Assembly: GCF_013122565.1 (NCBI RefSeq) | Contig: NZ_CP053258.1 | DNA: 64,000 bases | Source of the DNA: Escherichia coli | Lineage (GTDB): Bacteria > Pseudomonadota > Gammaproteobacteria > Enterobacterales > Enterobacteriaceae | Direction: 5' to 3' (one strand) | In this document: positions 1 through 19,700 of the stretch, one piece after another | How positions within the stretch are numbered: the first letter of the stretch is position 1 | How the letters are laid out: every line of letters begins with the position of its first letter | Made by a program: the position numbers and the translations under genes | The notes under the pieces: generated by a model | Database searches by the model: none | Told to the model about the DNA's origin: nothing | The model's input: the letters and a program-made list of their open reading frames with translations, nothing else

Positions 1-208
1 AGCGCCAGTTGCCATGCTGCGCATACTGCTCGCCAAGCGCATCACTTAACAGTTGTAATCGCTGTTCATTACCATGCTTGATGTAATCAATAAAGCCACG
101 CTCAAAACTGATACGCACCGCCCAGTGCATACTGATCAGCAAGACAATGCAGGTGGCGAAAATCGCCAGAAACAGTTTGCCGGTAATACCGGGTCGCCAG
201 AACTTCAT
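1..208 (-). CDS. baeS: Sensor histidine kinase BaeS, N-terminal 69 codons only (gene continues beyond the window edge)
   Basis: Hand translation of the minus strand from the ATG at 208 gives [39 protein letters not shown]... with no stop down to position 1; start overlaps the mdtD stop by 4 nt. Matches recalled BaeS N-terminus. Confidence 0.8.
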
Positions 209-1620: not shown

Positions 1621-4600
1621 TTACTCGGTTACCGTTTGTTTAGGTTTACGCGAAAAACGCAGCCGCAGACGGTCGAAAAAGAGATACACCACCGGCGTGG
1701 TATACAGCGTCAGGAGCTGACTCATCACCAGACCGCCGACAATGGTGATCCCCAAGGGTTGGCGCAGCTCCGAGCCGTCACCGCCCGACAACACCAGCGG
1801 CAGCGCGCCAAACAGCGCCGCCAGGGTAGTCATCATAATCGGGCGAAAACGCAGCAGACAGGCCTGGAAAATAGCTTCCTGCGGCGTCAGGTTACCGTGC
1901 CGTTGGGCTTCAAGCGCAAAATCGACCATCATAATGGCGTTTTTCTTCACGATGCCGATTAATAGCATGATCCCTATCAGGGCGATTAGGCTGAACGGGG
2001 CATTGAACAGCTCCAGCGCCAGCAGCGCTCCAACGCCCGCCGAGGGCAGGGTGGAGAGAATCGTCAGCGGATGTACGTAACTCTCGTAAAGGATACCCAG
2101 CACGATATACACCGTGGCGATGGCGGCGATAATCAGGATCACCTGCGAGTTCATCGTCTCCTGGAACACCTGCGCCGTGCCGGCAAAACTGCCGCGCACC
2201 GTCGAAGGCACGCCAAGCTGGGTCATTGCGCGGTCGATCGCGGCACTGGCGTCCGAGAGCGATTTCCCGGTCGGCAGGTTGAACGAGATGGTCGAGGCCG
2301 CCGATAATCCCTGATGATTCACCGACAGCGGAGCATTCGCCGGTTGCCATTTAGCGAAATACGACAGCGGGATCGCTTTGCCTTCGTTATTGATAACGAA
2401 CATTTTTTCCAGCGCGCTGATGTCCTGGGTATAGCGCGGATCCACTTCCATCACCACTTTATACTGGTTCATCGGCTGGTAAATGGTCGAGATTTGCCGC
2501 TGACCGAAGGCGTTATTTAACAGGCTGTTGGCGGCCTGTACGTCGATTCCCAGCCGTGCCATGGTGTCGCGATCGTAAACCAGATTCATCTCCGCGCCGT
2601 TATCCTGCTGATCGGAGTTCACGTCCGCCAGTTCCGGCAATGTCGCCAGTTTTTTGCGGATTTTCGGCTCCCATTCGCGCAGTGCCGCCAGGTCGTCGGA
2701 TAACAACGTGTACTGGTAGCTGGCGTTCGACTGACGCCCACCAACGCGAATATCCTGTACCGCCATCAGGAACAGATTCGCCCCCGGTTCTTTCGCCAGT
2801 TTTACGCGCAGACGGTCGATAATTTGCTGCGCTGTTTCGCTGCGTTCGTCGCGTGGCTTGAGGGTGATAAACATCATGCCGCTGTTCACTCGCGAACCGC
2901 CGGTAAATCCGGTGACATTATCCACTGCCGGATCGTCACGGATAATTTTCATGAAATCCTGCAATTTGCCGCGCATTGCCTGAAACGAAATACTCTGATC
3001 CGCCTGTATCCCGCCCATCAGCACGCCGGTGTCTTGTTCCGGGAAGAAGGTCTTCGGGATCGAGATATAGAGCCAGATATTCAAAGCAATGGTGCCAAGC
3101 AGCACCACGCCCACCAGACGGGTATGATTGAGCACCCATTTCAGTGACTTACCATAGCCTTGTTGCAGGGCTACCAACATGCGACCAAAACCACGCAGTC
3201 GCTTTTGCTCGCGCGGCTTGCTGGCTTTCAGCATCCAGCCACACATCATTGGCGTTAATGTCAGAGAAACCAGCAACGAAATACCAATGGCGACAGAAAG
3301 CGTCACGGCAAACTCGCGTAACAGTCGGCCCGGCAATCCGCCCATCAACAGCAGCGGCAGGAACACCGCCACCAGTGACAGACTCATCGACAGCACCGTA
3401 AAGCCGACTTCGCGAGTACCTTGTAGCGCGGCCTGTAGTGGTTTCATCCCCGCTTCCAGATGACGGGCAATGTTTTCCAGCACCACGATGGCGTCATCCA
3501 CCACGAAACCAGTAGCGATGGTGAGCGCCATTAACGACAGGTTATTGAGACTGAATCCGCACAGGTACATCGCCGCAAACGTACCAATCAGCGAAACCGG
3601 CACCGCAACGGCGGGAATAATAGTGGCGCGACCCGAGCGCAGGAATAAAAAGACCACCAGAATCACCAGCGCCACCGAGATAATCAGCGTTTGCTCGACT
3701 TCTTCCAGCGAGGCGCGAATGGTGGGGGAGCGATCCTGAGCAATTTGCAGATCAATCGCCGCCGGAATGGTCTCCTGCAACTCCGGTAATTTTGCCCGGA
3801 TGCTGTCTACCGTCTGGATAATATTGGCTTCCGGCAGTTTGCGGATCATCAGCAAAATAGCCGGTTTGGCGTTGGTCATCCCGGCGTTGCGCACATCCTG
3901 CACTGAGTCGGTTACCGTTGCCACATCGCCCAGACGAACCGCACCACCATTGTTGTAGTGAATAATCAGCGGCTGATATTCAGCGGCGGTTTTCAGTTCA
4001 TCGTTGGTCTGGATCTGCCAGCGGTGAATGCCATCTTCCAGCGCCCCCTGTGGTTTACGTACGTTGGCATTGCTGATGGCAGTGCGTACGTCGTCCAGCG
4101 ACACGCCCTGATTAAACAGTGCTTGCGGGTTCAGCCCGACGCGCACCGCAGGCAGCGAGCTGCCGCCGACATCGACATCACCGACGCCGTCGATTTGAGA
4201 AATCGTCGGAGCCAGCTGCGTCGAGGCAAAATCGTACAGTTCACCTTGCGAATAAGTATCGGACGTCAGCGTGAGGATCATAATTGGCGCATCCGACGGG
4301 TTCGCTTTGCGATAGGTCGGACGGCTGGGCATCCCGCTGGGCAGCAAACTTTGTGCAGCGTTGATCGCCGCCTGCACATCGCGCGCTGCGCCGTTGATAT
4401 CGCGGTCAAAATCAAACTGCAAAATAATGCGCGTGCTGCCGAGCGAACTGCTGGAGGTCATTTCACTGACCCCGGCAATGCGCCCAAGTGATCGCTCCAG
4501 CGGCGTGGCAACGGAAGACGCCATTGTTTCTGGTGACGCACCGGGCAGCGAGGCGCTGACCATAATCACTGGAAAATCGACCTGCGGCAGCGGGGCGACC

Positions 4601-4698
4601 GGCAGCATACGGAAACCCAGTATGCCGCACAGGGTAATGGCGACCGACAGTAAAATCGTTGCCACCGGGCGGTAAATGAAGAGGGCAAAAAACTTCAC
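1621..4698 (-). CDS. mdtC: RND multidrug efflux pump subunit MdtC (1025 aa)
   Basis: 1025-aa ORF with RND/AcrB-like architecture (12 TM, two large periplasmic loops); start abuts mdtB stop; paralogous to the upstream 1040-aa ORF. Confidence 0.9.
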
Positions 4699-7600
4699 TT
4701 ACGCCTCCTCTTCATGACGGGCAAAGCGACTTTTGGTCCACAATGCCAGGCGGTCGAACAGCAGATAAATCACCGGCGTGGTGAACAGCGTCAGCACCTG
4801 GCTGACAATCAGACCGCCGACCATGCCGATACCTAACGGACGACGCAGTTCCGCGCCGACCCCGGTACTCAACATCAGCGGCAGCGCGCCAAGCAGAGCC
4901 GCCAGGGTGGTCATCAGGATCGGACGAAAACGCAACAGACAAGCCTGGTAGATTGCATCGCGCGGCGACATGCCTTGCTCGCGCTCAGCAGCCAGCGCGA
5001 AGTCGATCATCATGATGGCGTTCTTCTTCACGATACCGATCAGCAAAATAATGCCGATAATCGCAATCACATCCAGTTCGCTACCGGCAATCATTAACGC
5101 CAGCAGTGCGCCAACACCTGCCGTGGGTAGCGTCGAGAGAATGGTGATCGGGTGAATAAAGCTCTCGTACAGAATGCCGAGCACGATATACATCGCCACC
5201 ACCGCCGCGACAATCAGCCAGACGGTGCTGCCCAGCGCCGACTGGAAGGCGAGGGTGCTGCCCTGGAACTGCGTGGTGATATCCACCGGCAGATTCAGAG
5301 TCTTTTCGGTGTCCATAATCGCCTGCACCGCATCGCCCAGCGAATAGTTATCCGGCACGTTAAAGGAGATGGTCGTTACCGGGAACTGATCCAGATGGTT
5401 GATGGAAAGCGGCGCAAAACGCTGCTCAATTTTGGCAATTGAGCTTAACGGCACCACGCCACCGTCGCTGCTGGTCAGGCGAATGGTATCCAGCGCCGCG
5501 AGGCCTGGGGTATTTTCGGTGTTGTGCTCCAGCACCACGCGATACTGGTTAGCCTGAGTATAAATAGTGGAAATCAGCCGCTGACCAAACGCGTTGTACA
5601 GGGCGTTATCGACGTCCGCCATGCTGATCCCCAGACGGCTGGCGCTGTCGCGATCAACATTGACATACGCCACCAGCCCTTTGTCCTGCCAGTCGCTGGA
5701 GACATCAGATAGCTGTGGCAGCTGCTGGAGTTTTTCCATCAACTGTGGCACCCAGGTACTGAGCGCATCCAGTGACGTGGCCTGCAAGGTAAACTGGTAC
5801 TGGGTGCGGCTGACCTGAGTATCGATGGTCAGGTCCTGCGTTGGTTGCAGGAAGAGATCGACGCCCGGCACTTTATCCACCGCCGTTTGCAGACGGGCGA
5901 TGACTTTTTGCACCCGATCATCACGTTCATCCAGCGGTTTGAGGTTGATCTGCAAACGCGCACTGTTCAGCGACGGGTTAGTGCCATCAACGCCAACAAA
6001 TGAGGTCAGACTTTGCACTGCCGGATCCTGCAAAATCACGTCCGCGACCTGGCGTTGCCGCTGGGCCATATTGGCAAAGGAGCTGGATTGCGGTGCCTGC
6101 AAAGTGCCCTGAATAATGCCGTTATCCTGTACCGGGAAGAAACCTTTCGGAATGAACACCCACAATAGAACGCTAAGCAGCAGCGTGCTGAGCGCCACGC
6201 TTAAGGTCAGCCACGGATGATTCAGCACTTTCGCAAGTCCCTGACCATAGGCGGCGATTATCCTGTCGAACATTTTTTCCGAGGCACGGGAGAAGCGGTT
6301 CTGTTTACGCAGTGACTCCTGGCTGAGCATCCGCGCGCACATCATCGGTGTCAGGGTCAGCGACACCACGGCTGAGATCAAAATCGCTACCGCCAGGGTA
6401 ATAGCAAATTCGCGGAACAGTCGCCCGACGATATCGCCCATAAACAGCAGTGGGATCAACACCGCAATCAGCGAGAAGGTCAGCGAGATAATGGTAAAGC
6501 CGATTTCACCCGCGCCTTTGAGCGCCGCCGCCAACGGTTTTTCGCCTTTTTCGATATAGCGGGAAATGTTTTCGATCACCACGATGGCGTCATCGACCAC
6601 AAATCCGGTGGCGATAGTTAACGCCATCAGCGTCAGGTTATTGATTGAAAAATCGAGAAACACCATGACCGCGAAGGTGCCGATTAACGACAGCGGCACT
6701 GCGACGCCGGGAATGATGGTCGCCGGAATATTGCGCAAAAACAGGTAGATAATCATGACTACCAGCGCGATAGCCATCATCAATTCAAACTGAGTATCAT
6801 CGACGGATGCGCGGATATTGGTGGTACGGTCAGAAAGTACCGTCACCTTCACCGATTTCGGCAGACTCTCGGTGAGCTGTGGCAGCATCTGCCGGATGCT
6901 GTCGGCGGTGGAGATAATGTTAGCACCGGGCTGGCGCTGAACATTCATCACAATGGCCTGTTCTTTGTTCGCCCATGCGCCGAGCCAGCTGTTTTCTGCA
7001 CCTTGCTCTACGGTTGCGACATCGCCCAGACGAATCGGCGCGCCGTTCTGGTAGGCGATGATTAGCTGGCGATACTCTTCGGCGGATTGCATCTGGTCGT
7101 TAGCGGAAAGCGTAACCGCACGGGAAGGGCCGTCAAGGCTACCTTTAGCCGAGTTAACGTTAGCGCCGGTAATGGCGGTGCGCACGGTTTCGCTGGTCAG
7201 GCCGAGGGCGGCAATCGCCTGAGCGTTAAGTTTGACGCGAACAGCCGGACGCTGGCCGCCGGAAAGCGTCACCAGACCGACGCCGGAAATCTGCGAGATT
7301 TTCTGCGCGACGCGGGTTTCCACCATATCTTCCACTTGCGTCATCGGCATGGCTGTTGAGGTGACGGCGAGCGTCATGATCGGCGGATCTGCCGGGTTCA
7401 CTTTGCTGTAAACCGGCGGGTTAGGCAGATCGCTCGGCAACAAGTTGGTCGCAGCGTTAATCGCGGCCTGTACTTCCTGCTCGGCGACATCCAGCGGTAA
7501 TGTTAGCTGGAACTGCAAAGTGATAACTGACGCACCGCCGGAACTTTGCGACGACATCTGTTTCAGACCAGACATCTGCCCGAACTGGCGTTCGAGCGGC

Positions 7601-7821
7601 GCGGTAACGGCAGAGGTCATGACATCCGGGCTCGCACCTGGGTAGAGCGTGACCACCTGAATGGTCGGATAGTCCACTTCCGGCAGCGCCGAAACGGGCA
7701 GGGCGCGATAACCGATAATCCCGGCGAGTAAGATCGCCACCATCAGCAGCGTGGTGGCCACAGGACGCATAATAAACAGGCGCGACGGGCCGCCTGTGCT
7801 GCTCGGGGGTAACACCTGCAT
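4699..7821 (-). CDS. mdtB: RND multidrug efflux pump subunit MdtB (1040 aa)
   Basis: 1040-aa RND-family ORF; its ATG overlaps the mdtA stop codon by 1 nt (TGATG), indicating translational coupling. Confidence 0.9.
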
Positions 7822-9068
7822 CAGGAGCGTGCTCCTTTTTTCGCGTATTCGCGGCTGGTGGCTTTCTCTTCCGAAGTGGTGGCGCTCTGGGCTTCCACCA
7901 CTTCCACTTTCGCCCCTTCGGTCAGGCGATCAATGCCGTCTGTCACCACGCGATCGCCCGCAGAAATACCTGCGCGGATCACCACTTTCTGACTGTCCTG
8001 AATGCCCGGCGTCACCAGATGTTTGCTGACCTTGTTTTCGCTATTCAGCACCCAGACAAAATGGCCTTCATTGCCCATTTGCAGGGCGGCTGTTGGGATC
8101 ACCACGGCGTTTTGTTCGGTGTCGACTAACATACGCGCGTTAACAAACTGATTGGGAAACAGCGCATCATCCTGATTATTAAAGCGTGCTTTCACTTTAA
8201 TCGTACCGGTAGTGGCATCGATTTGGTTATCGAGACTTAACAGCGTGCCTTCACTTAATTTCTTCGAGTTGGTGCGATCCCAGGCTTCTACCACCAGCGG
8301 TTTTCCGGTTTTTTGCGCCTGCACAACGGTAGCGATATCGCTTTCCGGCAGGGTAAAGACTAAATCGATAGGATGCGTCTGGGTGATCACCACAATCCCG
8401 GAGGTATCACCACTGGAGATTTGGTTACCAACATCAACCTGCTTGAGACCAACGCGACCATCGACTGGTGCGGTGATGCGGCTCCAGTCGAGTTGCAGCT
8501 GTGCGCTGGCGACGCTTGCTTCATCAGCCTTAATGGTGCCTTCGGTTTCACTGACCAGCGCCTGTTGGGCATCCAGTTCCTGACGAGATACGAGATTGGT
8601 TTTTGCCAGTTGTTGATAACGCGCCAGGTCACGGCGGGCGTTGGCGAGCGTGGCTTTATCTTTTGCCAGTTGGCCCTGGGCTTGTGCTAATGCAACTTTG
8701 AACTGGCTTGGGTCAATTTCTGCCAGTAAATCGCCTGCTTTGACCTGCTGGCCTTCCTGGAAATGTAACGCCATCAGTTGACCGTCCACGCGGCTGCGCA
8801 CCGTAACAGTATTAGCGGCGGTAATGGTGCCAAGCCCGGTGAGGTAACGCGGAACAGCCTGTTCTACTGCGGTCGCCGCCTGAACCGGAGCTAATGGGCC
8901 GGCACGCATACCACGGCGACCACCCGCTGGCGATTGCTGCGCTTGTTTCGTCGCCCCAGGGGCTGCACTCTGGGAGTCATTGCGGCCTTGCCAGAACCAG
9001 AATGCGGCGATGGCGGCGATAACCACCACGATTACGATTACCCAACGGGATTTATAACTGCCTTTCAT
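7821..9068 (-). CDS. mdtA: Membrane fusion protein (periplasmic adaptor) MdtA, 415 aa
   Basis: Track ORF 7821..9215 is 464 aa; I place the start at the internal ATG at 9068 ([16 protein letters not shown]...), which gives the expected 415 aa with a signal/TM N-terminus. The 49 upstream codons are probably not translated. Confidence 0.8.
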
Positions 9069-9276: not shown

Positions 9277-9420
9277 GACGATTTCAGCGGGACGCTGAAA
9301 CGGGAAAGCCCCTATAAGGAAAGGGTCATGATGAAGTGGATCATCATCGTGGTGCTCTTAGTCATAAGCTTCCCGGCTTACTAAGACTACCAGGGCGGGG
9401 GAAACCCCGCTCTACCCTCA
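9277..9420 (-). ncRNA. sib: Sib-family antisense sRNA (antitoxin) overlapping ibs copy 1; boundaries approximate
   Basis: Minus-strand sigma70-like promoter: TTGACA (plus 9450..9455 reverse-complemented), 17-nt spacer, TAATTT; the transcript would run antisense across the whole ibs ORF. Length set to about 140 nt by analogy with the known SibA/SibB RNAs. Confidence 0.6.
9328..9384 (+). CDS. ibs: Ibs-family type I toxin peptide, 18 aa (MMKWIIIVVLLVISFPAY)
   Basis: ATGATGAAG... ORF preceded by AAGGAAAGGG Shine-Dalgarno; hydrophobic peptide with the Ibs family signature MMK...VISFPAY. Confidence 0.8.
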   Translation: MMKWIIIVVLLVISFPAY

Positions 9421-9594
9421 CTCCTGAAATTATGCCTTCACGATAAGATTGTCAATCCGCAGGCTTTGTAGTCTGCGATCCTGCCAGCAAATATTCTTTG
9501 CGAGTCGTTACGCAATAATCACACTGGAAACTATTTTATCCGCAAGTCAGCGATAGACTGCATACAGGGCGAAAGGAGGTAAGCCGACGATTTC

Positions 9595-9738
9595 AGCGGG
9601 ACGCTGAAACGGGAAAGCCCCTCCCGAGGAAGGGGCCTTAAATAAGGAAAGGGTCATGATGAAGATACTCATCATCGTGGTGCTCTTAGTGATTAGCTAC
9701 CCAGCATACTAAGACTACCAGGGCGGGGGAAACCCCGC
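9595..9738 (-). ncRNA. sib: Sib-family antisense sRNA overlapping ibs copy 2; boundaries approximate
   Basis: Same minus-strand TTGACA/TAATTT promoter arrangement (TGTCAA at plus 9768..9773) as in copy 1. Confidence 0.6.
9656..9712 (+). CDS. ibs: Ibs-family type I toxin peptide, 18 aa (MMKILIIVVLLVISYPAY)
   Basis: Second repeat unit; same SD spacing and peptide architecture as copy 1. Confidence 0.8.
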   Translation: MMKILIIVVLLVISYPAY

Positions 9739-9939: not shown

Positions 9940-10083
9940 GGAAACCCTCTCCCGGAGAAGAGGGCTTTTAATAAGGAAAGGGTTATGATGAAGCACGTCA
10001 TCATACTGGTGATACTCTTAGTGATTAGCTTCCAGGCTTACTAAGAACACCAGGGGGAGGGGGAAACCTCTCCCTAACCCTCA
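9940..10083 (-). ncRNA. sib: Sib-family antisense sRNA overlapping ibs copy 3; boundaries approximate
   Basis: Minus-strand promoter with TTGACA (plus 10113..10118 reverse-complemented) and TAATTT after a 17-nt spacer. Confidence 0.55.
9985..10044 (+). CDS. ibs: Ibs-family type I toxin peptide, 19 aa (MMKHVIILVILLVISFQAY)
   Basis: Third repeat unit; ORF one codon longer than the other two and ending FQAY instead of FPAY. Confidence 0.8.
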   Translation: MMKHVIILVILLVISFQAY

Positions 10084-10264
10084 CTCCTGAAATTATGTCA
10101 CTCCGCCCTTAGTGTCAATCGACGGCTCTCCGTTCTTGCGAGGCGAATAGCAAAATTTTCTGCGCCGCCGGGCCTAATTCTGAAAGTTTCTTCGTTTGCT
10201 CTTATTTCATTATTGCAATCGGTATGATACCGGACCTCGATAATTCTCTAAGAAAGGATTTCTT

Positions 10265-10924
10265 ATGAGCGAACAAATCACGTTTGCCACCAGCGATTTT
10301 GCCAGTAACCCGGAACCACGTTGCCCCTGCATTTTGCTGCTGGATGTTTCTGGTTCGATGAACGGTAGACCCATTAATGAACTTAACGCCGGATTGGTTA
10401 CCTTTCGCGATGAGCTGCTTGCCGATTCGCTGGCCTTAAAAAGAGTGGAACTCGGTATTGTGACGTTCGGCCCGGTGCATGTGGAACAACCATTTACCAG
10501 CGCCGCTAATTTTTTCCCGCCCATCCTGTTTGCCCAGGGCGATACACCAATGGGGGCCGCCATTACCAAAGTCCTGGATATGGTTGAGGAGCGCAAACGT
10601 GAGTATCGTGCAAATGGTATTTCGTATTATCGCCCGTGGATTTTCCTGATCACCGATGGCGCTCCAACCGATGAGTGGCAGGCTGCCGCCAACAAAGTGT
10701 TTCAGGGGGAAGAAGATAAGAAGTTTGCCTTCTTTACCATCGGTGTGCAGGGGGCGGATATGAAGACGCTGGCACAAATCAGCGTTCGTCAGCCTTTGCC
10801 ACTGCAGGGATTACAATTCCGTGAACTGTTTAGCTGGTTATCCAGTTCACTGCGTTCGGTTTCCCGCTCCACGCCGGGAACGGAAGTTGTGCTGGAAGCA
10901 CCAAAAGGCTGGACGTCAGTGTGA
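10265..10924 (+). CDS. yegL: von Willebrand factor A (vWA) domain protein YegL, TerY-like (219 aa)
   Basis: 219-aa ORF with a MIDAS-type motif ([11 protein letters not shown]) near the N-terminus; stop overlaps the start of the next gene (GTGA). Confidence 0.85.
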
Positions 10925-11682
10925 GCTGGCGTCTGGTCTATGCATCAACCGTTGGAACGTCGCACATCAGCGCGGACTTGCCTTGCCAGGATGCCTGCCA
11001 GATGCAGGTTGCCTGGTTAAATGACCAGCAGCCATTATTGTCGGTATTTGTCGCTGATGGCGCAGGCAGTGTCTCGCAGGGTGGCGAAGGCGCGATGCTT
11101 GCCATCAATGAAGCGATGGCTTATGTGTCGCAAAAAGTGCAGCACGGTGAATTTGGACTCAATGATATCCTCGCCACGGATATTGTGCTGACCGTTCGTC
11201 AGCGACTTTTTGCCGAGGCGGAAGCCAAAGAATTAGCAGTTCGCGATTTTGCCTGCACGTTTCTGGGATTGATTTCATCGGCTAACGGCACCTTGATTAT
11301 GCAGATTGGCGATGGCGGCGTGGTGGTGGATTTTGGTCACGGTCTGCAATTACCGCTTACGCCGATGGTGGGTGAATATGCCAATATGACGCATTTCATT
11401 ACCGATGAAGATGCCGTTTCCAGACTGGAAACTTTCACCATCACTGAGCGTGTGCATAAAGTTGCAGCATTTACGGACGGTATCCAGCGACTGGCGTTAA
11501 ATATGTTGGATAATTCTCCGCATGTGCCTTTCTTTACCCCGTTTTTCAATGGACTGGCGTCAGCAACGCAGGAACAACTCGATTTATTACCTGAATTGTT
11601 AAAGCAGTTTTTGTCCAGCCCGGCGGTAAACGAGCGTACGGATGATGATAAAACGTTGGCACTGGCGCTGTGGGCAGAGTGA
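10921..11682 (+). CDS. yegK: PP2C-family Ser/Thr protein phosphatase YegK (253 aa)
   Basis: 253-aa ORF starting at a GTG that overlaps the yegL stop; PP2C-like motifs ([24 protein letters not shown]). Confidence 0.8.
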
Positions 11683-11691
11683 GTTTCTCAT

Positions 11692-11719
11692 GGCGGTTGA
11701 AGACAACAATTCAACCGCC
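11692..11719. terminator. Hairpin between the convergent genes yegK and yegJ, possible bidirectional terminator
   Basis: GGCGGTTGAA-GACAACAA-TTCAACCGCC: perfect 10-bp stem with an 8-nt loop; the flanking U-tracts are weak. Confidence 0.5.
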
Positions 11720-11746
11720 AGTTTAAGCAATCAATATAACGGCTGA

Positions 11747-12208
11747 TTAGCGAACTAATTTTGCTCTTAGCTCGTCGGCTTCTTCTTTTGGATAGGTGAC
11801 CAATAAAGGATCAATGGTATAACCGCCGTAAATTTTATCCCCGCGCGTATACATCCAGTCTGAAATATCTTCTTTCTTGATTTTCCACTCCTGGCCATAT
11901 TCTACGTTTGTAACAATACCAGGGTCATTGCTGATTACGCCAATAAACATGCCGTTAGAATAAGTGACATCCGTAAGCCAGAAATGCTCGGTTCTTCCGT
12001 GATCGGTTATCGGGGCTTTGACTGCGAAAGTATCGGCATCTTTTTTATTCATAACCTCGATGAATTTATCGGTTTCTTTCCGCGCATGTTTAATCGCGTC
12101 AGACATCGCTTGTTTATCATAACCTCCTGTCACTAACGTATCCGAAACTTCACAATAGCCTGCGGTAGTAAAACATAGCAGGCTCAACATGAGTAATATC
12201 TTTTTCAT
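11747..12208 (-). CDS. yegJ: Secreted/periplasmic protein YegJ, unknown function (153 aa)
   Basis: 153-aa ORF with an N-terminal signal peptide (MKKILLMLSLLCFTTAGYC); position between yegK and yegI. Confidence 0.75.
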   Translation of the reverse strand: MKKILLMLSLLCFTTAGYCEVSDTLVTGGYDKQAMSDAIKHARKETDKFIEVMNKKDADTFAVKAPITDHGRTEHFWLTDVTYSNGMFIGVISNDPGIVTNVEYGQEWKIKKEDISDWMYTRGDKIYGGYTIDPLLVTYPKEEADELRAKLVR

Positions 12209-12405
12209 TTTTTCTCCAGAATCTCTGTGTAGTAAAAGTTAGCAAAACCTGTGGAAGTTAATCATTATCAGGTTGGAATTGAATTGTATCCTGATGAAAT
12301 TACATTATCATTTTTATTCTTGAGTGGGCTCTTCCCATATAGAAATAATTATAATGGGCAGTGTTATTATTCATTGAAATATAATATTACTGCCCTTGAA
12401 ACATT

Positions 12406-14352
12406 ATGAAGACAAATATAAAAGTATTTACATCAACAGGTGAAATGACCACTCTCGGTCTTGAACTGGGCAAAGGTGGCGAAGGTGCGGTTTATGATAT
12501 CGAGGAGTTTGTCGATAGCGTCGCTAAGATTTATCACACGCCGCCACCCGCCTTAAAACAGGACAAACTTGCCTTTATGGCTGCGACAGCTGACGCGCAG
12601 TTGTTGAATTATGTCGCCTGGCCGCAGGCAACGCTTCACGGTGGACGAGGCGGAAAAGTTATCGGTTTTATGATGCCAAAAGTTTCTGGTAAAGAACCGA
12701 TTCATATGATCTATAGCCCGGCACATCGTCGCCAGAGTTACCCTCATTGTGCGTGGGATTTTCTACTCTATGTTGCGCGCAATATTGCTTCATCTTTTGC
12801 TACGATTCACGAGCACGGGCACGTCGTGGGTGACGTAAACCAGAACAGCTTTATGGTAGGTCGCGACAGCAAAGTGGTGTTGATTGATAGCGACTCCTTT
12901 CAGATTAATGCCAATGGCACGCTGCATTTATGCGAAGTCGGCGTGTCGCATTTTACGCCGCCAGAGCTACAAACCTTGCCATCATTTGTCGGCTTTGAAC
13001 GCACCGCGAATCACGATAATTTTGGCCTTGCGTTGCTGATTTTTCACGTCTTGTTTGGTGGGCGGCATCCTTATTCTGGTGTGCCGCTTATCTCTGATGC
13101 GGGGAATGCGCTGGAGACGGATATTGCCCATTTCCGTTATGCCTACGCGTCAGATAATCAGCGACGTGGTTTAAAACCGCCGCCACGATCGATTCCGCTG
13201 TCGATGTTACCGGGCGATGTTGAAGCCATGTTTCAGCAGGCATTCACGGAAAGTGGCGTGGCAACCGCGCGTCCGACGGCAAAAGCGTGGGTAGCGGCAC
13301 TTGATTTACTACGCCAACAGTTAAAGAAATGTACCGTTTCGGCAATGCATGTTTACCCCGGTCATTTGACTGACTGCCCGTGGTGTGCGCTGGATAATCA
13401 AGGCGTTATCTATTTTATTGATCTCGGCGAAGAGGTCATTACCACCAGTGGTGATTTTGTGCTGGCGAAAGTCTGGGCGATGGTGATGGCGTCAGTAGCA
13501 CCGCCAGCATTGCAATTGCCATTACCCGATCATTTCCAACCGACTGGCCGGCCGCTTCCTTTAGGCCTGTTACGGCGCGAATACATCATTCTGATTGAGA
13601 TCGCACTGTCAGTGTTATCGCTGTTGCTTTGCGGCCTTCAGGCAGAACCGCGTTATATTATTTTGGTTCCTGTGCTGGCGGCTATCTGGATTATTGGCAG
13701 CCTGACAAGCAAAGCGTACAAAGCAGAAGTCCAGCGACGAAGAGAGGCTTTTAATCGCGCGAAAATGGACTATGATCATTTAGTCAGCCAGATCCAACAA
13801 TTGGGCGGGCTGGAAGGTTTTATCGCCAAACGGGCGATGCTCGAAAAAATGAAGGACGAAATTCTCGGGTTACCGGAAGAAGAGAAACGCGCTCTGGCAG
13901 CACTTCATGACACTGCAAGGGAACGGCAGAAGCAGAAGTTTCTGGAGGGATTTTTTATTGATGTTGCCTCTATTCCCGGCGTTGGCCCTGCGCGTAAAGC
14001 GGCGTTACGGTCCTTTGGTATTGAAACAGCAGCGGATGTTACCCGTCGTGTCGTTAAGCAAGTGAAAGGGTTTGGTGATCATCTGACCCAGGCAGTTATC
14101 GACTGGAAAGCAAGTTGCGAACGCCGTTTTGTGTTCAGGCCGAATGAAGTGGTAACGCCAGCAGACAGACAAGCGGTAATGGCGAAAATGACCGCCAAAC
14201 GACATCGGCTGGAATCGGCGTTGACTGTCGGCGCGACAGAGTTGCAGCGATTCCGCCTTCATGCTCCAGCACGGACCATGCCGTTGATGGAACCTTTACG
14301 TCAGGCGGCAGAAAAACTGGCTCAGGCGCAGGCAGATTTAAGCCGCTGCTGA
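12406..14352 (+). CDS. yegI: Protein-kinase-like protein YegI (648 aa)
   Basis: 648-aa ORF; N-terminal region has glycine-rich GLELGKGGEGAVY and catalytic-loop-like HGHVVGDVNQNSFMV...IDSDSF motifs; central hydrophobic segment; C-terminal coiled-coil-like region. Confidence 0.8.
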   Translation: MKTNIKVFTSTGEMTTLGLELGKGGEGAVYDIEEFVDSVAKIYHTPPPALKQDKLAFMAATADAQLLNYVAWPQATLHGGRGGKVIGFMMPKVSGKEPIHMIYSPAHRRQSYPHCAWDFLLYVARNIASSFATIHEHGHVVGDVNQNSFMVGRDSKVVLIDSDSFQINANGTLHLCEVGVSHFTPPELQTLPSFVGFERTANHDNFGLALLIFHVLFGGRHPYSGVPLISDAGNALETDIAHFRYAYASDNQRRGLKPPPRSIPLSMLPGDVEAMFQQAFTESGVATARPTAKAWVAALDLLRQQLKKCTVSAMHVYPGHLTDCPWCALDNQGVIYFIDLGEEVITTSGDFVLAKVWAMVMASVAPPALQLPLPDHFQPTGRPLPLGLLRREYIILIEIALSVLSLLLCGLQAEPRYIILVPVLAAIWIIGSLTSKAYKAEVQRRREAFNRAKMDYDHLVSQIQQLGGLEGFIAKRAMLEKMKDEILGLPEEEKRALAALHDTARERQKQKFLEGFFIDVASIPGVGPARKAALRSFGIETAADVTRRVVKQVKGFGDHLTQAVIDWKASCERRFVFRPNEVVTPADRQAVMAKMTAKRHRLESALTVGATELQRFRLHAPARTMPLMEPLRQAAEKLAQAQADLSRC

Positions 14353-14364
14353 GCCATTTTTCAA

Positions 14365-15717
14365 TTAACGAAACACCACTTCCGCCCAGCGTGCCAGCCC
14401 GGCGGTGACGGAGCCAAAGTCATCGCCGCCTGCAATCGGAATGCCCGGCAACTGTTCTGCCAGCGCTTTTTTAATCAGCGGAGAACGGGCGCTACCGCCG
14501 GTCAGGTATATAACGTCCGGTTTTTCCTGGGCGTTATCCAGGGCCAGTTGCACCTGTTCCAGAATCCGCGCCAGTGGCTGGCTGAGGGCGCTTTCCAGCC
14601 CTTGCTGGCTAATCAGCGTAGCCAGTTCATCGCTAATAAACGGCAGTGAGGCGCGGGTTTCCGCAGTGCTGGAAAGAGCAATTTTGCTCTCTTCTGCGCT
14701 ACGCACCAGGCGATAGCTTAAACGCTGACGCCAGACTTTCTGTAGCAGGGCCACTTTTTCCGGTTCGCGGGCATCGCGTACCAGATCGTTAAGCAGACGA
14801 CCGTTGGCACTACTGTAGAAATCACTCTGCGCAGGAACGTCGTTGATGGCAACCGCATTCCACCACGGCAGAATCGGCAGGGCGATGCCTTTTTCGGTTT
14901 CGCCACCCATGCCCAGTAACGGCATCAGGTTTTTAAACGCCAGCGCGATATCCAGATCGTTACCGCCAATACGGCAACCACTGTGACCGAGCAGGCTGGC
15001 TTCACGATCGAGACGCGAACGCCACTGCGGCCCCATCAGCAGCAATGAACAGTCAGTCGTACCACCGCCGATATCCACCACCAGCACCCGTTTTTCTTCC
15101 TGCAAGGTGGCCTCGTAATCCAGCCCAGCTGCTACCGGCTCGTACTGGAATACCACATCCTTAAACCCGGCACGCTTTGCCGCGCGTTCCAGAATTCCTT
15201 GCGCCTGAGCGTTTGCTTCATCACCCCCCAGCCCCTGGAAGTTGATCGGGCGACCAATCACCGCCTGAGTAATCGCTTCTGGCAGCTGCGCCTGCGCCTG
15301 CTGGCGAATGTGCAACATCATTGCGCAGACCAGATCCTCAAACAGCGCTACCTGCTGCGGTTTTAAGCCGCTGGCACCGAGGAACGATTTTGGTGATTTC
15401 ACAAACCACACTTCTTCTGGATCATCAATGTACTGTGCCAGTGAGGAAAGACCGAACTGCACGCTTTTCGCCGTAACATCGATATCTTCTTCGCGGTTAT
15501 AACGAATCGCCCGACGTAACAGCGCCTGCGTTTCATCGTCGTCTGCCGGAACATCATGATGGCGGTACAGCCATTCGCTTACCGCTTCACGCGTTGGCGC
15601 GCAAAGCATTGAAGGCAGCAGCGTGCTGTCGTTTTCCATTTTTAGCAAGTGCGGTTTACCGTCACGCATGACCGCCACTGAACAGTTTGCTGTACCGTAA
15701 TCAAAACCAATAAACAC
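14365..15717 (-). CDS. yegD: Hsp70-family (actin-like ATPase) protein YegD, 450 aa
   Basis: Track ORF is 471 aa from an upstream ATG; I place the start at the GTG at 15717 (V/M-FIGFDYGTANCSVAVM...), which gives the typical Hsp70 N-terminus and 450 aa. Confidence 0.75.
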   Translation of the reverse strand: MFIGFDYGTANCSVAVMRDGKPHLLKMENDSTLLPSMLCAPTREAVSEWLYRHHDVPADDDETQALLRRAIRYNREEDIDVTAKSVQFGLSSLAQYIDDPEEVWFVKSPKSFLGASGLKPQQVALFEDLVCAMMLHIRQQAQAQLPEAITQAVIGRPINFQGLGGDEANAQAQGILERAAKRAGFKDVVFQYEPVAAGLDYEATLQEEKRVLVVDIGGGTTDCSLLLMGPQWRSRLDREASLLGHSGCRIGGNDLDIALAFKNLMPLLGMGGETEKGIALPILPWWNAVAINDVPAQSDFYSSANGRLLNDLVRDAREPEKVALLQKVWRQRLSYRLVRSAEESKIALSSTAETRASLPFISDELATLISQQGLESALSQPLARILEQVQLALDNAQEKPDVIYLTGGSARSPLIKKALAEQLPGIPIAGGDDFGSVTAGLARWAEVVFR

Positions 15718-15790
15718 GAAATAATCCCCATGCCGGTGAAGAAGGGGCGTGACTTTAGCGAAATGTTGCCGTCGCGACAACCGGAATATG

Positions 15791-15798
15791 AAAGCAAA
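15791..15798 (+). promoter_or_regulatory. Ada box (AAAGCAAA) in the alkA promoter
   Basis: AAAGCAAA lies about 20 nt upstream of a TATGCT -10-like hexamer and 53 nt upstream of the alkA ATG, consistent with the known Ada-activated alkA promoter layout. Confidence 0.55.
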
Positions 15799-15850
15799 GC
15801 GTAGCGTCTGAATAACGTTTATGCTGAAAGCGGATTAACGAGGAGATGCG

Positions 15851-16708
15851 ATGTATACCCTGAACTGGCAGCCGCCGTATGACTGGTCGTGGATGTTGGG
15901 ATTTCTCGCCGCCCGTGCGGTGAACGGTGTGGAAACGGTCGCTGACGATTATTATGCCCGTAGTCTGACGGTGGGCGAATATCGCGGCGTGGTGACTGCT
16001 ATTCCGGATATAGCCCGCCATACTCTGCACATAAATTTAAGTGCAGGTTTAGAACCCGTTGCCGCAGAGTGTCTGGCGAAAATGAGCCGCCTGTTTGATC
16101 TGCAATGTGACCCGCAGATTGTTAACGGTGCGTTGGGAAAGTTAGGCGCGGGGCGGCCCGGATTGCGTTTACCCGGCAGTGTTGATGCTTTTGAGCAGGG
16201 CGTGCGGGCGATTTTAGGCCAACTGGTGAGCGTGGCGATGGCGGCAAAATTGACCGCCAAAGTGGTACAGCTTTATGGCGAAAGGCTGGATGATTTTCCG
16301 GATTATGTCTGCTTCCCGACGCCTCATCGGCTGGCTGCAGCCGACCCGCAGGCATTAAAAGCGTTAGGTATGCCGTTGAAACGGGCAGAGGCGCTGATTC
16401 ATCTGGCAAATGCGGCGCTGGAGGGCACCTTACCAATGACAATACCGGGCGACGTAGAACAAGCGATGAAAACGCTGCAAACTTTTCCGGGTATCGGGCG
16501 CTGGACGGCGAATTATTTTGCTTTGCGTGGCTGGCAGGCGAAAGATGTTTTCCTGCCGGATGATTATCTGATTAAACAGCGATTTCCGGGTATGACACCG
16601 GCACAAATCCGCCGTTATGCCGAACGCTGGAAGCCCTGGCGTTCTTATGCGCTGTTGCATATCTGGTATACGGAAGGCTGGCAACCAGACGGAACGGACA
16701 AATTGTAG
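15851..16708 (+). CDS. alkA: 3-methyladenine DNA glycosylase II AlkA (285 aa ORF)
   Basis: ORF begins MYTLNWQPPYDWSWMLGFLAARAV... and contains an HhH glycosylase region; size and neighbours fit alkA. Confidence 0.9.
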   Translation: MYTLNWQPPYDWSWMLGFLAARAVNGVETVADDYYARSLTVGEYRGVVTAIPDIARHTLHINLSAGLEPVAAECLAKMSRLFDLQCDPQIVNGALGKLGAGRPGLRLPGSVDAFEQGVRAILGQLVSVAMAAKLTAKVVQLYGERLDDFPDYVCFPTPHRLAAADPQALKALGMPLKRAEALIHLANAALEGTLPMTIPGDVEQAMKTLQTFPGIGRWTANYFALRGWQAKDVFLPDDYLIKQRFPGMTPAQIRRYAERWKPWRSYALLHIWYTEGWQPDGTDKL

Positions 16709-16709
16709 G

Positions 16710-16730
16710 CCTGATACGTCGTATCAGGCG
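16710..16730. terminator. Palindromic hairpin between the convergent genes alkA and dgcE
   Basis: GCCTGATACG/CGTATCAGGC is a perfect 10-bp inverted repeat immediately after the alkA stop; REP-like and likely a bidirectional terminator. Confidence 0.45.
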
Positions 16731-16745
16731 ATGGAGAAGCACGCC

Positions 16746-19700
16746 TCAGTTAATCGCGAAATAACTACTATTCACCAGCAAATCCAGCGGTTGGGCACCG
16801 GCAATCACATCACCATAAATCAGATCGAGGCCGATGCCAGAAAGCGTATCCATCACTAAGGGTAAAACGACTGGCCCGGCGATGGTTTTCATCCCGAGTC
16901 GCTGAGCGTGCCCCTGAATAATCGTAATCAGCATCTCATCCATCAAATTACCCTGCACGTTGGCGCATAACTCACCATCAAGTAGCAGGTAATCTGCCAT
17001 ATTCGCTTTCAGCGAGTTGAAGATTTGCAGATCGCGGCCCACCTGGCTGAGCACTATCCGACATCCCGCCAGCCGCAGTTTTTGCACGCTTTCTGCGTGA
17101 TCTAAAATCGCTTCAGCCGGAATAATCAGATGTAATAACCGTGGTGGTAGAGGGCTATTTTCCAGCTGCTCAAGCAGATCATTCACCAGCGTGGCGCTAC
17201 TCAAACCGGCAACGGAAAGGGGGAGGGCGATGCTTATGCCTTTACTGGCAACCGCTTTTGCGGCCTGCTGGAAAAATTCGTGGAATACCCGGCGGTCAAG
17301 AGCATGGCTAAGCGCCGGATCGCTGAAGCTACGACGAAATGTTTGTTCATCAATAATCTCGCCTTCGCAACTCCAGAGCTTAAGTGAAATCAGCCACAAA
17401 TTACGCGCTTCCGGGATCCGTGGCGAAGCGACACCGTGGGCGAGCATCATCAACTGATTCTCTTTAATCATCCGCCACTGTTCATCAAGCGACATCGCCG
17501 CCCGTTCGCTATGTGCGGCAGCTTGCTGCGGTTCGTACATCGTCACCCGGCCCCGGCCACCATTTTTGGAGGCATAACAGGCGATATCAGCCTGCGACAT
17601 CACTTCTGCCGCCTGATGATTGTTGTCATCAATCAAGGTAATCCCGGCACTGGCACCTACCCGATGCACACGGCCTTCCCATATAAAGTGATAGTCATTC
17701 ACGGCACTGATAATGCGTGTAGCGATAAAACGCGCGCTTTCAACATTACAGTCTGGCAGCAGCAGACCAAATTCATCACCACCGAGTCGCGCCAGCACGT
17801 CGCTGGAGCGCAGCATACTCAGCATCAACGACGCCAGTTCTCGCAGCAAAGCGTCGCCCGCCGCATGCCCGGCGCTGTCATTCACCGCTTTAAAGCGATC
17901 AAGATCGATAAACACCAGGGCATGTCGCTGATGTGTACTGTTTACCGTTTGCAGCAGGATACGCAGTTGCTTCTCAAAACTGGCGCGATTGGCGAGATGC
18001 GTCAGTGCATCATGGGAGGCGCTGTAGCTCAGCTGGCGCAGCATTTTGCGTGATTCGGTAACGTCCTGAATCACCAGTACCGAGCCTATATTGCTGCCGT
18101 CCAGAGTACTTAACGGCGTAATACTGTAATGCACGTCGTAGCTACCGCCGCTCCGGCAGTGCAACACCACATCTTGTTCAATCGCGGAACGTGAGGTGTC
18201 GGCACTGTAAATGTTCTCCATTAATGGTCCGTTGTCGCCAAAAGTAATATGCAACACCGTCAGGAGCGGAACACCTAATGCTTCTTCCTGCGTCCAGCCG
18301 CTCATCTTCTCCGCCACTGGATTCATAAAGGTAATTTTCATCGCCATATCAATACAGACCACGGCTTCACCGATGGAGTCCAGCGTAATGTGCAGGCGTT
18401 CTTTTTCCTGAAACAATGCCTCGTTAAGCTGTTTAACTTCGGTCATATCCATATTAATGCCGAGCAGGCGTTCGACTTCGCCTTCTTTATTCAATACCCG
18501 GTTGGCGAGGGCGCGGATATGGCGAATACCGTCTTTCACGGTAATGCGAAATTCCAGTTTAAAGGGCGAGCGTGATTGCAACGAATCACGAATTACTTTT
18601 TCGGCATGCTGGCGATCTTCCGGCAGCACACACTCGTACCACACCTGCCAGTTCGGTTTGATATGCGGAGGAATTTCATACAGCTCGAACATCCGCTTAT
18701 CCCAACTGAAAATATCCGGCTTCAGCTCCCATTCCCAGATACCAATCCCGCCCGCTTCGTTAGCCAGCGTGATGCGCTCCATCAGTTGCTGATTGACCTG
18801 TTCGGTGCGTTTTAGTTCGTTAATGTCTTCAATCTGAGCGATAAAATAGAGCGGCGTGCCATCCGTGTGGCGCACCAGTGAGACGGCAAGCAACGCCCAG
18901 ACAACATCGCCATTGCGGTTGTAGTAACGTTTTTCCATTGAATAGGTGTTTATTTCACCGCTTATCAGCTTTTCAACCTGTTGGAGATCTTTATTGAGAT
19001 CCTCCGGCCAGGTCAGTTGCTGAAAGGTGAGTCCGCGCAGCTCTTCCTGACTGTAACCGAGAAACTGGCAGAGTGCTTTGTTGGATTGCAGCCATTGTCC
19101 CTCGGTGCCCACTAACGCCATGCCGATAGCGGAATATTCCATCGCGTTCCGAAAGCGGGTTTCGCTTTCGGAAATGTGTTTGCGTTCCGCACGAAAGGCA
19201 TACATCACCATGGTCATGATGTTGGCGGGCAGCAGGATCAGCAAAAACGGTAGCCACGGCATATGGCTCATTAGGTATGTACGCGGCGTAGCAAGCAGGG
19301 AGGGATCCGCGGCCATCATCAGCGACACCATCATCACCGTGGTAAGGAAGATCAAAAAGGCTTCCATTCGTGGCAGGCGCACGGCGCTCCACATCAACAG
19401 CACAATAATGAAAGTAAAAGGCCACGGCAGATACAGCATCGAAAGCCAGCTTAACGTCAGTGTGATGGCTAACGTGAGCAGCGACTCAAAAAGCAACCTT
19501 GGGTTGCGATGGCGCAGCAGATAGTGTGGTTTAAATAACAATCCCAGCGGCACCAGTGCCAGAGCGCCGATGGATTCTGACAGTACCCATATCAAAAATG
19601 CCCTGAGAGGATCGTCTCCGGGCGTCAGCAGGACAACCAGAACACCCCCCAACAGAGGCGGAACAATGGCGCTGCCGAGTGCCAGACGCAGCCAGTCAGC

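What the first reader, a model, noticed from the sequence alone, without database searches (positions are those of the whole stretch)
14340..14380. Convergent genes yegI and yegD separated by only 12 bp
The yegI stop (14352) and the yegD stop (14365) face each other with a 12-bp gap and no hairpin, so transcripts from either gene must terminate inside the other. This creates potential for antisense overlap or transcriptional interference between the kinase-like gene and the Hsp70-like gene.
Basis: seen in the sequence. Interest (0 to 1): 0.2.

Follow-up and report, generated by a model that had tools for sequence, protein, structure and literature searches.

The report
Shared terminator hairpin between yegI and yegD

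Summary
The geometry is confirmed. yegI (+) ends with TGA at 14350-14352. yegD (-) ends with TAA at 14367-14365. The spacer is the 12 bp GCCATTTTTCAA, as in E. coli K-12.

The claim of "no hairpin" is wrong. A 52-nt near-palindrome at 14311-14362 folds at about -26 kcal/mol on either strand (z = -5.1; 0 of 200 shuffles fold as well). It reads GAAAAA, then a 39-nt stem-loop, then TTTTTC. That gives a U-tract after the stem on both strands, which is the signature of a bidirectional intrinsic terminator.

- **Construction:** the left arm is the yegI codons Leu-Ala-Gln. The right arm is the last base of the Cys codon, the TGA stop and the first four spacer bases.
- **Rank in the window:** it is the strongest two-way terminator-like site in the 64 kb.
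- **Predicted ends:** yegI transcripts should end in or at the spacer. yegD transcripts must run about 55 nt into the yegI coding region. The overlap would be about 50 nt.
- **Prior report:** a published RNA-seq survey (ExcludonFinder, PMC12288877) already lists yegD-yegI as a convergent overlapping pair in MG1655.

No 3'-end mapping data could be retrieved and covariation is uninformative, so function remains a prediction. The feature is ordinary and of low interest.

The parts
12406..14352 (+). yegI coding sequence (Ser/Thr kinase YegI, 648 aa), stop TGA at 14350-14352
   Evidence: annotated as yegI in matching E. coli records
14365..15717 (-). yegD coding sequence (Hsp70-family protein, 450 aa, GTG start), stop TAA at 14367-14365
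   Evidence: Pfam HSP70 E=1.1e-24
14353..14364 (.). 12-bp spacer GCCATTTTTCAA: GCCA completes the stem, TTTTTC is the U-tract for yegI (and the A-tract for yegD), and AA is left over
14318..14356 (.). Core stem-loop, forming on either strand: 8-bp lower stem TGGCTCAG/CTGAGCCA, 2x2 internal loop, 5-bp upper stem with one bulge, 8-nt loop. It contains the last 11 yegI codons, the TGA stop and 4 spacer bases
14311..14316 (.). GAAAAA on the + strand (yegI codons Glu-Lys). Read on the - strand it is the UUUUUC tract that follows the hairpin in the yegD transcript. Predicted yegD 3' ends lie at about 14307-14312
   Evidence: sequence and fold; 3' ends inferred
14357..14362 (.). TTTTTC on the + strand: the U-tract that follows the hairpin in the yegI transcript (tail score 3.9). 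Predicted yegI 3' ends lie at about 14361-14366
   Evidence: sequence and fold; 3' ends inferred

Best explanation
The junction carries one shared, bidirectional intrinsic (Rho-independent) terminator built across the end of yegI. The unit at 14311-14362 reads GAAAAA, a 39-nt stem-loop, then TTTTTC.

A polymerase coming from yegI transcribes the stem-loop and then UUUUU, and is predicted to release the RNA at about 14361-14366. That is inside the 12-bp spacer or at the yegD stop codon. A polymerase coming from yegD transcribes the complementary stem-loop, then G and UUUUU, and is predicted to release at about 14307-14312. That is about 55 nt past its stop codon and antisense to the last roughly 14 codons of yegI. 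The two mature mRNAs would share a complementary tail of about 50 nt.

Shown here: the anatomy, the fold stability on both strands, and its rank within the window. Inferred: that it terminates transcription, and the positions of the 3' ends. Also inferred: termination is leaky when the upstream gene is being translated. The yegI UGA sits inside the 3' arm, and the yegD UAA lies 8 nt from the core stem. Any read-through RNA would be untranslated antisense RNA, which is a substrate for Rho.
For: - **Repeat and fold:** inverted repeat, 13-nt arms, 92% complementary. The 76-nt context folds at -29.2 kcal/mol on + (z -3.8) and -26.6 on - (z -3.1). The exact 52-nt unit folds at -26.1 and -25.4 kcal/mol, z -5.07 and -5.06, with 0 of 200 shuffles as stable.
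- **Rank in the window:** my scan of both strands for a single stem-loop followed by a T-rich tail ranks it 4th by energy. It is the shortest of the top hits and the strongest of only four two-way candidates, and it lies exactly at the convergent junction. Tail scores are 3.9 on + and 3.5-4.0 on -.
- **Within E. coli:** the same unit is identical in K-12 and is present in IAI1-type, O157 and ST131 strains. In ST131 a T-to-G change in the spacer closes the only mismatch at the base of the stem (-30.2 kcal/mol, z -6.2).
- **Other genera:** Kosakonia, Buttiauxella and Raoultella lack yegI and carry a canonical terminator 3-10 nt after the yegD stop, so a terminator is expected at that position.
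- **E. albertii:** it deleted yegL through yegI but kept the last 70 nt of yegI, including the hairpin and the yegD-side U-tract. The yegI-side U-tract has decayed.
- **How it is built:** the C-terminal peptide KLAQAQADLS is conserved in homologues about 50% identical. The hairpin therefore combines constrained codons with the free bases (stop codon and spacer). Three distant homologues lack the unit.
- **Literature:** yegD-yegI is in the MG1655 core list of convergent overlapping pairs, and 146 of those 165 pairs have overlapping TransTermHP terminators (PMC12288877).
Against: - No mapped RNA 3' end could be retrieved. The supplementary files held for Adams et al. 2021 contain no yegD or yegI entry, and the other data sets are not held. 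These genes are barely expressed in standard culture (PMC13232886).
- There is no covariation support. 93.9% of cells pair, but that is no better than shuffles (272 of 500 shuffles do as well), because the sequences are too similar.
- The hairpin is weak in the Escherichia sp. MOD1-EC7003 locus (z +0.4 and -0.8) and only modest in E. albertii (z -1.8). It is therefore not maintained across the genus.
- The stem is not textbook. It has an 8-bp lower stem, an internal loop and a bulge, and an A-U pair next to the U-tract. On the yegD strand one G separates the stem from the U-tract.
- Both stop codons are closer to the stem than the roughly 27 nt needed to escape ribosome repression in a reporter system (PMC4824070), so efficiency in vivo may be low.
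Confidence: 0.65

Rival explanations
1. Leaky junction, or a true excludon. The hairpin terminates poorly in vivo because ribosomes finishing yegI or yegD melt it. Polymerases then run hundreds of bases into the partner gene. The result is long antisense RNA, polymerase collisions and RNase III cleavage, so expression of the kinase gene and of the Hsp70-like gene is mutually exclusive.
For: - yegD-yegI is listed as a convergent excludon in at least 50% of 58 MG1655 transcriptomes (PMC12288877).
- The yegI stop codon is inside the 3' arm, and the yegD stop is 8 nt from the core stem.
- In a reporter system, moving the stop codon from 28 bp to 5 bp upstream of a terminator cut termination from about 90% to under 10% (PMC4824070).
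- A sigma-S in vitro transcription profile lists an EDL933 feature 'antisense of yegI' (PMC3141248).
Against: - The excludon call only requires the transcript boundaries to overlap. A 50-nt shared terminator would satisfy that.
- It rests on coverage thresholds applied to genes that are barely expressed.
- No reciprocal expression data exist for this pair.
- The strong two-way hairpin with U-tracts is hard to explain if it has no termination role.
Confidence: 0.2
2. Collision-assisted bidirectional termination. The stem-loop mainly acts as a pause or positioning element. Efficient release needs head-on and trailing polymerase collisions between the convergent genes, as proposed for E. coli bidirectional terminators.
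For: The single-molecule and SEnd-seq work of Wang, Ju and Liu reports that a stem-loop between convergent genes positions collisions and sharpens 3' ends (bioRxiv 10.1101/2022.10.23.513370). The geometry here fits: convergent genes and a shared stem-loop.
Against: - That class was described as not resembling intrinsic terminators. This element does resemble one, with U-tracts on both sides.
- Both genes are weakly transcribed, so collisions should be rare.
Confidence: 0.08
3. Incidental or non-terminator hairpin. The palindrome is a by-product of the conserved C-terminal coding sequence, or it serves only as a 3' stabiliser against exonucleases. Real termination would be Rho-dependent, further downstream in the untranslated antisense RNA.
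For: - No covariation.
- The hairpin has decayed in the Escherichia sp. MOD1-EC7003 locus.
- The left arm lies in conserved codons.
- Downstream RNA is mildly C-rich relative to G on both transcribed strands. GC skew is -0.17 at 14350-14449 for + transcripts, and +0.14 to +0.27 at 14000-14249, which means C-rich for - transcripts.
Against: - The right arm and both U/A-tract partners use unconstrained bases (stop codon choice and spacer), and they match the left arm.
- Three distant homologues with the same C-terminal peptide lack the unit.
- z = -5 on both strands, and the site lies exactly at the junction.
Confidence: 0.07

Closest known systems
Bidirectional intrinsic terminators shared by convergent E. 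coli genes (A-tract, hairpin, U-tract), as discussed in PMC4824070 and mapped genome-wide by SEnd-seq (Ju et al. 2019, cited; that paper was not readable here)
   Same: A single stem-loop flanked by an A-tract and a U-tract, so that each strand reads hairpin then U-run. It sits between two facing genes. The predicted transcript overlap equals the length of the terminator.
   Different: Here the element does not fit in the intergenic space. About 40 of its 52 nt lie inside the yegI reading frame, and the yegI stop codon is part of the stem. Function has not been measured.
Convergent excludons (ExcludonFinder core excludome of MG1655, PMC12288877)
   Same: This very pair is listed there. It has a short intergenic distance and a terminator embedded in the neighbour's transcription unit, as in 146 of the 165 listed pairs.
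   Different: Reciprocal repression and RNase III processing, which define an excludon functionally, have not been shown for this pair. The overlap may be only about 50 nt.
Ribosome-repressed terminators close to stop codons (lambda tR2 reporter series, PMC4824070)
   Same: Both stop codons are within a few nucleotides of the stem or inside it. That is well under the roughly 27 nt at which repression disappears in that system.
   Different: That system was synthetic, on a plasmid and one-directional. No measurement exists for this natural site.

Membership tests
Intrinsic (Rho-independent) terminator, bidirectional type | Stable G+C-containing stem-loop in the nascent RNA on both strands | tested here: met
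   -26.1 and -25.4 kcal/mol for the 52-nt unit, z -5.07 and -5.06. The core 39-nt hairpin is -22.3 on + and -17 to -20 on -.
Intrinsic (Rho-independent) terminator, bidirectional type | U-rich tract directly 3' of the stem on each strand (an A-tract 5' of the stem on the other strand) | tested here: met
   On +, UUUUUC at 14357-14362, tail score 3.9. On -, G then UUUUUC at 14317-14311, tail score 3.5-4.0 counted from the first U and 2.4 if the G is counted.
Intrinsic (Rho-independent) terminator, bidirectional type | Position at the 3' end of a transcription unit | tested here: met
   It straddles the yegI stop and begins 2-8 nt after the yegD stop. Other genera have canonical terminators at the same place after yegD.
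Intrinsic (Rho-independent) terminator, bidirectional type | RNA 3' ends at the U-tract in vivo, or factor-independent termination in vitro | not testable with these tools
   No yegD or yegI 3' end appears in the held supplements of PMC7815308. Other data sets are not held.
Intrinsic (Rho-independent) terminator, bidirectional type | Evolutionary maintenance of the pairing (compensatory changes) | tested here: inconclusive
   13 Escherichia sequences: 93.9% of cells paired, one pair with a double change, no better than shuffles. The structure has decayed in the Escherichia sp. MOD1-EC7003 locus.
Convergent excludon | Overlapping transcripts from the two facing genes | not tested
   Taken from the literature only: the pair is listed in Table 1 of PMC12288877. 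The extent of the overlap is not given.
Convergent excludon | Mutually exclusive expression and RNase III processing of the overlap | not testable with these tools
   No data were found for this pair.
Known structured RNA family (Rfam) | Match to any Rfam 15 covariance model in 13900-14800 | tested here: not met
   0 matches at E <= 1.

The most novel reading that the evidence does not exclude
The shared hairpin acts as a translation-gated two-way switch. The yegI UGA lies inside the stem and the yegD UAA abuts it. A ribosome finishing either gene would melt the only terminator at the junction. Active translation of one gene would then drive antisense read-through into the other. This would couple the YegI kinase (with the PphC phosphatase) and the Hsp70-like YegD in a reciprocal circuit. 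YegJ overproduction is reported to induce yegD (PMC13232886), which hints that these genes are functionally linked.
Probability: 0.1. Interest if true: 0.45.

Novelty: already known. Interest (0 to 1): 0.12.

Why it matters
It matters little beyond annotation.

- **For annotation:** a very short gap between facing genes does not mean there is no terminator. The terminator can be built from the end of one coding sequence, its stop codon and the spacer.
- **For work on YegI or YegD:** the last 13 codons of yegI double as the predicted yegD terminator. A yegI deletion or a C-terminal tag that removes 14311-14362 could change the yegD 3' end and its expression. The reverse also applies.
- **Evolution:** the yegL-pphC-(yegJ)-yegI block is an Escherichia-specific insertion immediately after the yegD stop codon. 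That explains the tight junction.

Tried and rejected
- **Consensus terminator scan:** it found nothing at the junction. It cannot see stems with internal loops, so this negative result was set aside after folding.
- **Covariation on 13 Escherichia sequences:** uninformative, because divergence is too low.
- **Search for direct 3'-end evidence:** Ju et al. 2019 is not held. No supplements are held for ExcludonFinder, the Nanopore study, Dar & Sorek 2018 or the 3'-UTR valve paper. The Adams 2021 and TERMITe supplements have no yegD or yegI entry.
- **Rfam:** no known RNA family.
- **Ancestral yegD terminator captured by yegI?** Rejected. Homology with Citrobacter, Salmonella and other genera stops at the yegD stop codon, and the YegI C-terminus is conserved in distant homologues.
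- **Hairpin travelling with the yegI family?** Not supported. Three distant homologues lack the A-tract, hairpin and U-tract unit.
- **SECIS-like or read-through signal at the yegI UGA?** Rejected by reading the sequence. The UGA is in the descending arm and no hairpin follows it. The long open frame after it is simply the antisense of yegD.
- **REP/BIME element?** Rejected by eye, from memory of the REP consensus; no tool was run for this.
Full report
**Observation**

The window carries yegI on the + strand at 12406-14352. It is 648 aa and 96.8% identical to K-12 YegI. yegD lies on the - strand at 15717-14365. It is 450 aa, 98.4% identical to K-12 YegD, and matches Pfam HSP70.

The yegI stop TGA is at 14350-14352 and the yegD stop TAA is at 14367-14365. 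MG1655 has the same layout: yegD ends at 2149026 and yegI at 2149039. The window is the reverse complement of K-12 at roughly 2.10-2.16 Mb.

The gap is stable. It is 12 bp in K-12, O157:H7, ST131 and the three other Escherichia loci that carry yegI (L002-L004). It is 11 bp (GCCATTTTCTT) in IAI1-type strains. Among the four convergent junctions in this stretch it is the tightest. In the window, pphC/yegJ has 64 bp and alkA/dgcE 37 bp; yegH/asmA has 273 bp in K-12.

The statement "no hairpin" is wrong. An inverted repeat with arms at 14313-14325 and 14349-14361 folds into a stem-loop on both strands. With 76 nt of context the energies are -29.2 kcal/mol on + (z -3.8) and -26.6 on - (z -3.1). The exact 52-nt unit at 14311-14362 gives -26.1 and -25.4 kcal/mol, with z -5.07 and -5.06, and none of 200 dinucleotide shuffles folds as well.

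The anatomy, read on the + strand, is:
- GAAAAA (14311-14316), then an unpaired C.
- An 8-bp lower stem, TGGCTCAG paired with CTGAGCCA.
- A 2x2 internal loop, a 5-bp upper stem with one bulge, and an 8-nt loop.
- TTTTTC (14357-14362).

Each strand therefore reads hairpin followed by a run of five U. On the yegD strand one G intervenes. That is the A-tract, hairpin, U-tract signature of a bidirectional intrinsic terminator (general description in PMC4824070). The tool's simple scan missed it because it does not allow interrupted stems.

**Is it more than chance?**

I scanned both strands of the whole 64-kb window for single stem-loops that end directly before a T-rich tail. The yegI/yegD hairpin scores -22.3 kcal/mol over 39 nt with a tail score of 3.9. 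It is 4th by energy and is much shorter than the three hits above it. It is also the strongest of only four sites that score on both strands at the same place. That such a site falls exactly on this junction is unlikely to be coincidence. Rfam has no match here.

**How the hairpin is built**

Codon by codon, the end of yegI is GAA AAA CTG GCT CAG GCG CAG GCA GAT TTA AGC CGC TGC TGA, coding EKLAQAQADLSRC*.

The peptide KLAQAQADLS is conserved in homologues of about 50% identity from unrelated bacteria, and they end within two or three residues of the same point. The left arm (Leu-Ala-Gln codons) and the A-tract (Glu-Lys) are therefore under protein constraint. The right arm is made of free bases: the third base of the last codon, the TGA stop codon and GCCA of the spacer. 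The U-tract fills most of the remaining spacer.

Ten of the 12 spacer bases thus belong to the element. Three distant homologues examined at the DNA level lack this unit. It is therefore a property of this junction and not of the gene family.

**Evolutionary context**

A scan of one genome per species with YegD returned 80 loci. yegI lies next to yegD only in Escherichia.

- In Citrobacter, Salmonella and Kluyvera, yegD is followed directly by the sib/ibs element and mdtA.
- In Kosakonia, Buttiauxella and Raoultella, a canonical terminator sits 3-10 nt after the yegD stop.
- One soil isolate labelled E. coli (MEI4BO-21, L089) also lacks the yegI block.

Homology with these genera ends at the yegD stop codon. 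The yegL-pphC-(yegJ)-yegI block is therefore an insertion immediately after yegD, and that explains the tight junction.

E. albertii has a clean deletion corresponding to window 10334-14282. The deletion leaves the last 70 nt of yegI, including the hairpin. Its yegD-side U-tract survives (GUUUUCUC), whereas the yegI-side tract has decayed (CACGTCTCC). This fits a role as the yegD terminator, but it is a single case and the fold there is only modest (z -1.8).

Within E. coli the structure is kept. In ST131 a T-to-G change in the spacer closes the one mismatch at the stem base (-30.2 kcal/mol, z -6.2). In the Escherichia sp. MOD1-EC7003 locus the hairpin has largely decayed (z +0.4 and -0.8). 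A formal pair count on 13 sequences shows 93.9% pairing but no signal above shuffles, because the sequences are too similar. Conservation therefore neither proves nor disproves function.

**Mechanism (inferred)**

yegI transcripts should end about 5-9 nt after the stem, at 14361-14366. That is within the spacer or at the yegD stop codon. yegD transcripts must cross the spacer and the whole hairpin and should end at about 14307-14312. That is roughly 55 nt beyond the yegD stop and antisense to the last 14 or so codons of yegI. The two mRNAs would share about 50 nt of perfectly complementary 3' tail.

Both stop codons are very close to the stem. The yegI UGA is inside it, and the yegD UAA is 8 nt from the core. 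Reporter work shows that ribosomes suppress terminators placed within a few nucleotides of a stop codon, and that the effect disappears beyond about 27 nt (PMC4824070). Termination may therefore be leaky when the upstream gene is translated. Read-through RNA would be untranslated antisense RNA. The downstream RNA is mildly C-rich over G on both strands, so Rho could act as a back-up. That last step rests on general knowledge and was not tested.

**Literature**

- ExcludonFinder (PMC12288877) lists yegD-yegI, and also the neighbouring dgcE-alkA, among 165 convergent overlapping pairs found in at least half of 58 MG1655 transcriptomes. It reports that 146 of the 165 have overlapping TransTermHP terminators. 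The overlap is therefore already published, although the call only needs boundaries to overlap and these genes are weakly expressed.
- yegI, pphC and yegJ are barely expressed in standard growth, and YegJ overproduction induces yegD (PMC13232886).
- yegD translation is activated by RyhB (PMC4666370).
- I could not retrieve any mapped 3' end for either gene.

**Verdict**

The geometry is real. The "no hairpin" premise is false. The feature is best read as an ordinary bidirectional intrinsic terminator, shared by two convergent genes and pushed into the end of yegI because an insertion left only 12 bp of spacer.

My confidence that it terminates in at least the yegD direction is about 0.65. The main rival is that it is leaky enough for real antisense interference (about 0.2). 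The kind of element is well known and the overlap of this pair is already listed in the literature, so interest is low.

Noticed in passing
window 11683-11746 (hairpin 11692-11719): The neighbouring convergent junction pphC/yegJ (64-bp gap) holds a perfect 10-bp stem, GGCGGTTGAA...TTCAACCGCC, with an 8-nt loop. The 91-nt context folds with z -3.4 on + and -2.8 on -. Its U-tracts are poor (AGUUUAAG on +, none on -).
   Followed up: partly
window 16709-16745, compared with L001 1585-1692: The alkA/dgcE convergent gap is 37 bp in the window but 108 bp in K-12. K-12 carries roughly 60-70 extra bases here; I did not identify them. dgcE-alkA is also in the published excludon list. One supplementary table of Adams et al. 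2021, whose meaning I did not check, lists K-12 position 2146686 (+) as antisense to alkA.
   Followed up: partly
L005 4354-4500 (E. albertii), corresponding to window 10334-14282: E. albertii has a clean deletion of about 3.95 kb that removes yegL, pphC, yegJ and all but the last 70 nt of yegI. The remnant joins directly to the region upstream of yegL and sib/ibs.
   Followed up: partly
whole window (tested 1-8000, 10001-19000 and 12000-16000): The window is at most 98.2% (1-8000) and 97.4% (12000-16000) identical to any of 5,426 complete E. coli genomes, and 96.3% identical to K-12 over 10001-16691. It seems to come from an E. coli-like lineage not represented among the complete genomes. Its YegD is closest (99%) to Escherichia sp. 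E1V33.
   Followed up: partly
window 11674-12461, compared with L002-L004: yegJ and its flanks are absent from the three other Escherichia loci that carry yegI, where pphC and yegI abut. This agrees with published statements that yegJ is a lineage-specific insertion (10.1101/819920; PMC13232886). The window carries yegJ, as K-12 does.
   Followed up: no
window 9300-9720 and loci L006-L022 downstream of yegD: Sib/Ibs type I toxin-antitoxin repeats (GGAGTGAGGGTTAGGGAGGGTTTCCCCTCCCCCTGGTGTCTTAGTAAGCC) lie directly after yegD in Citrobacter, Salmonella, Kluyvera and other genera. They mark the ancestral neighbour of yegD before the yegI block was inserted.
   Followed up: no
window 63473-63501: This is the only other good two-way terminator-like site in the window: GAGGCCCGGCGTATATTGCACCGGGCTTT followed by a T-rich tail on both strands. 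It is a canonical short hairpin. Its gene context was not examined.
   Followed up: no
yegI antisense strand (position unknown): A sigma-S in vitro transcription profiling study lists the EDL933 feature Z3239 as 'antisense of yegI', enriched 2.49-fold with sigma-S polymerase (PMC3141248). It could be yegD read-through or an internal antisense promoter.
   Followed up: no
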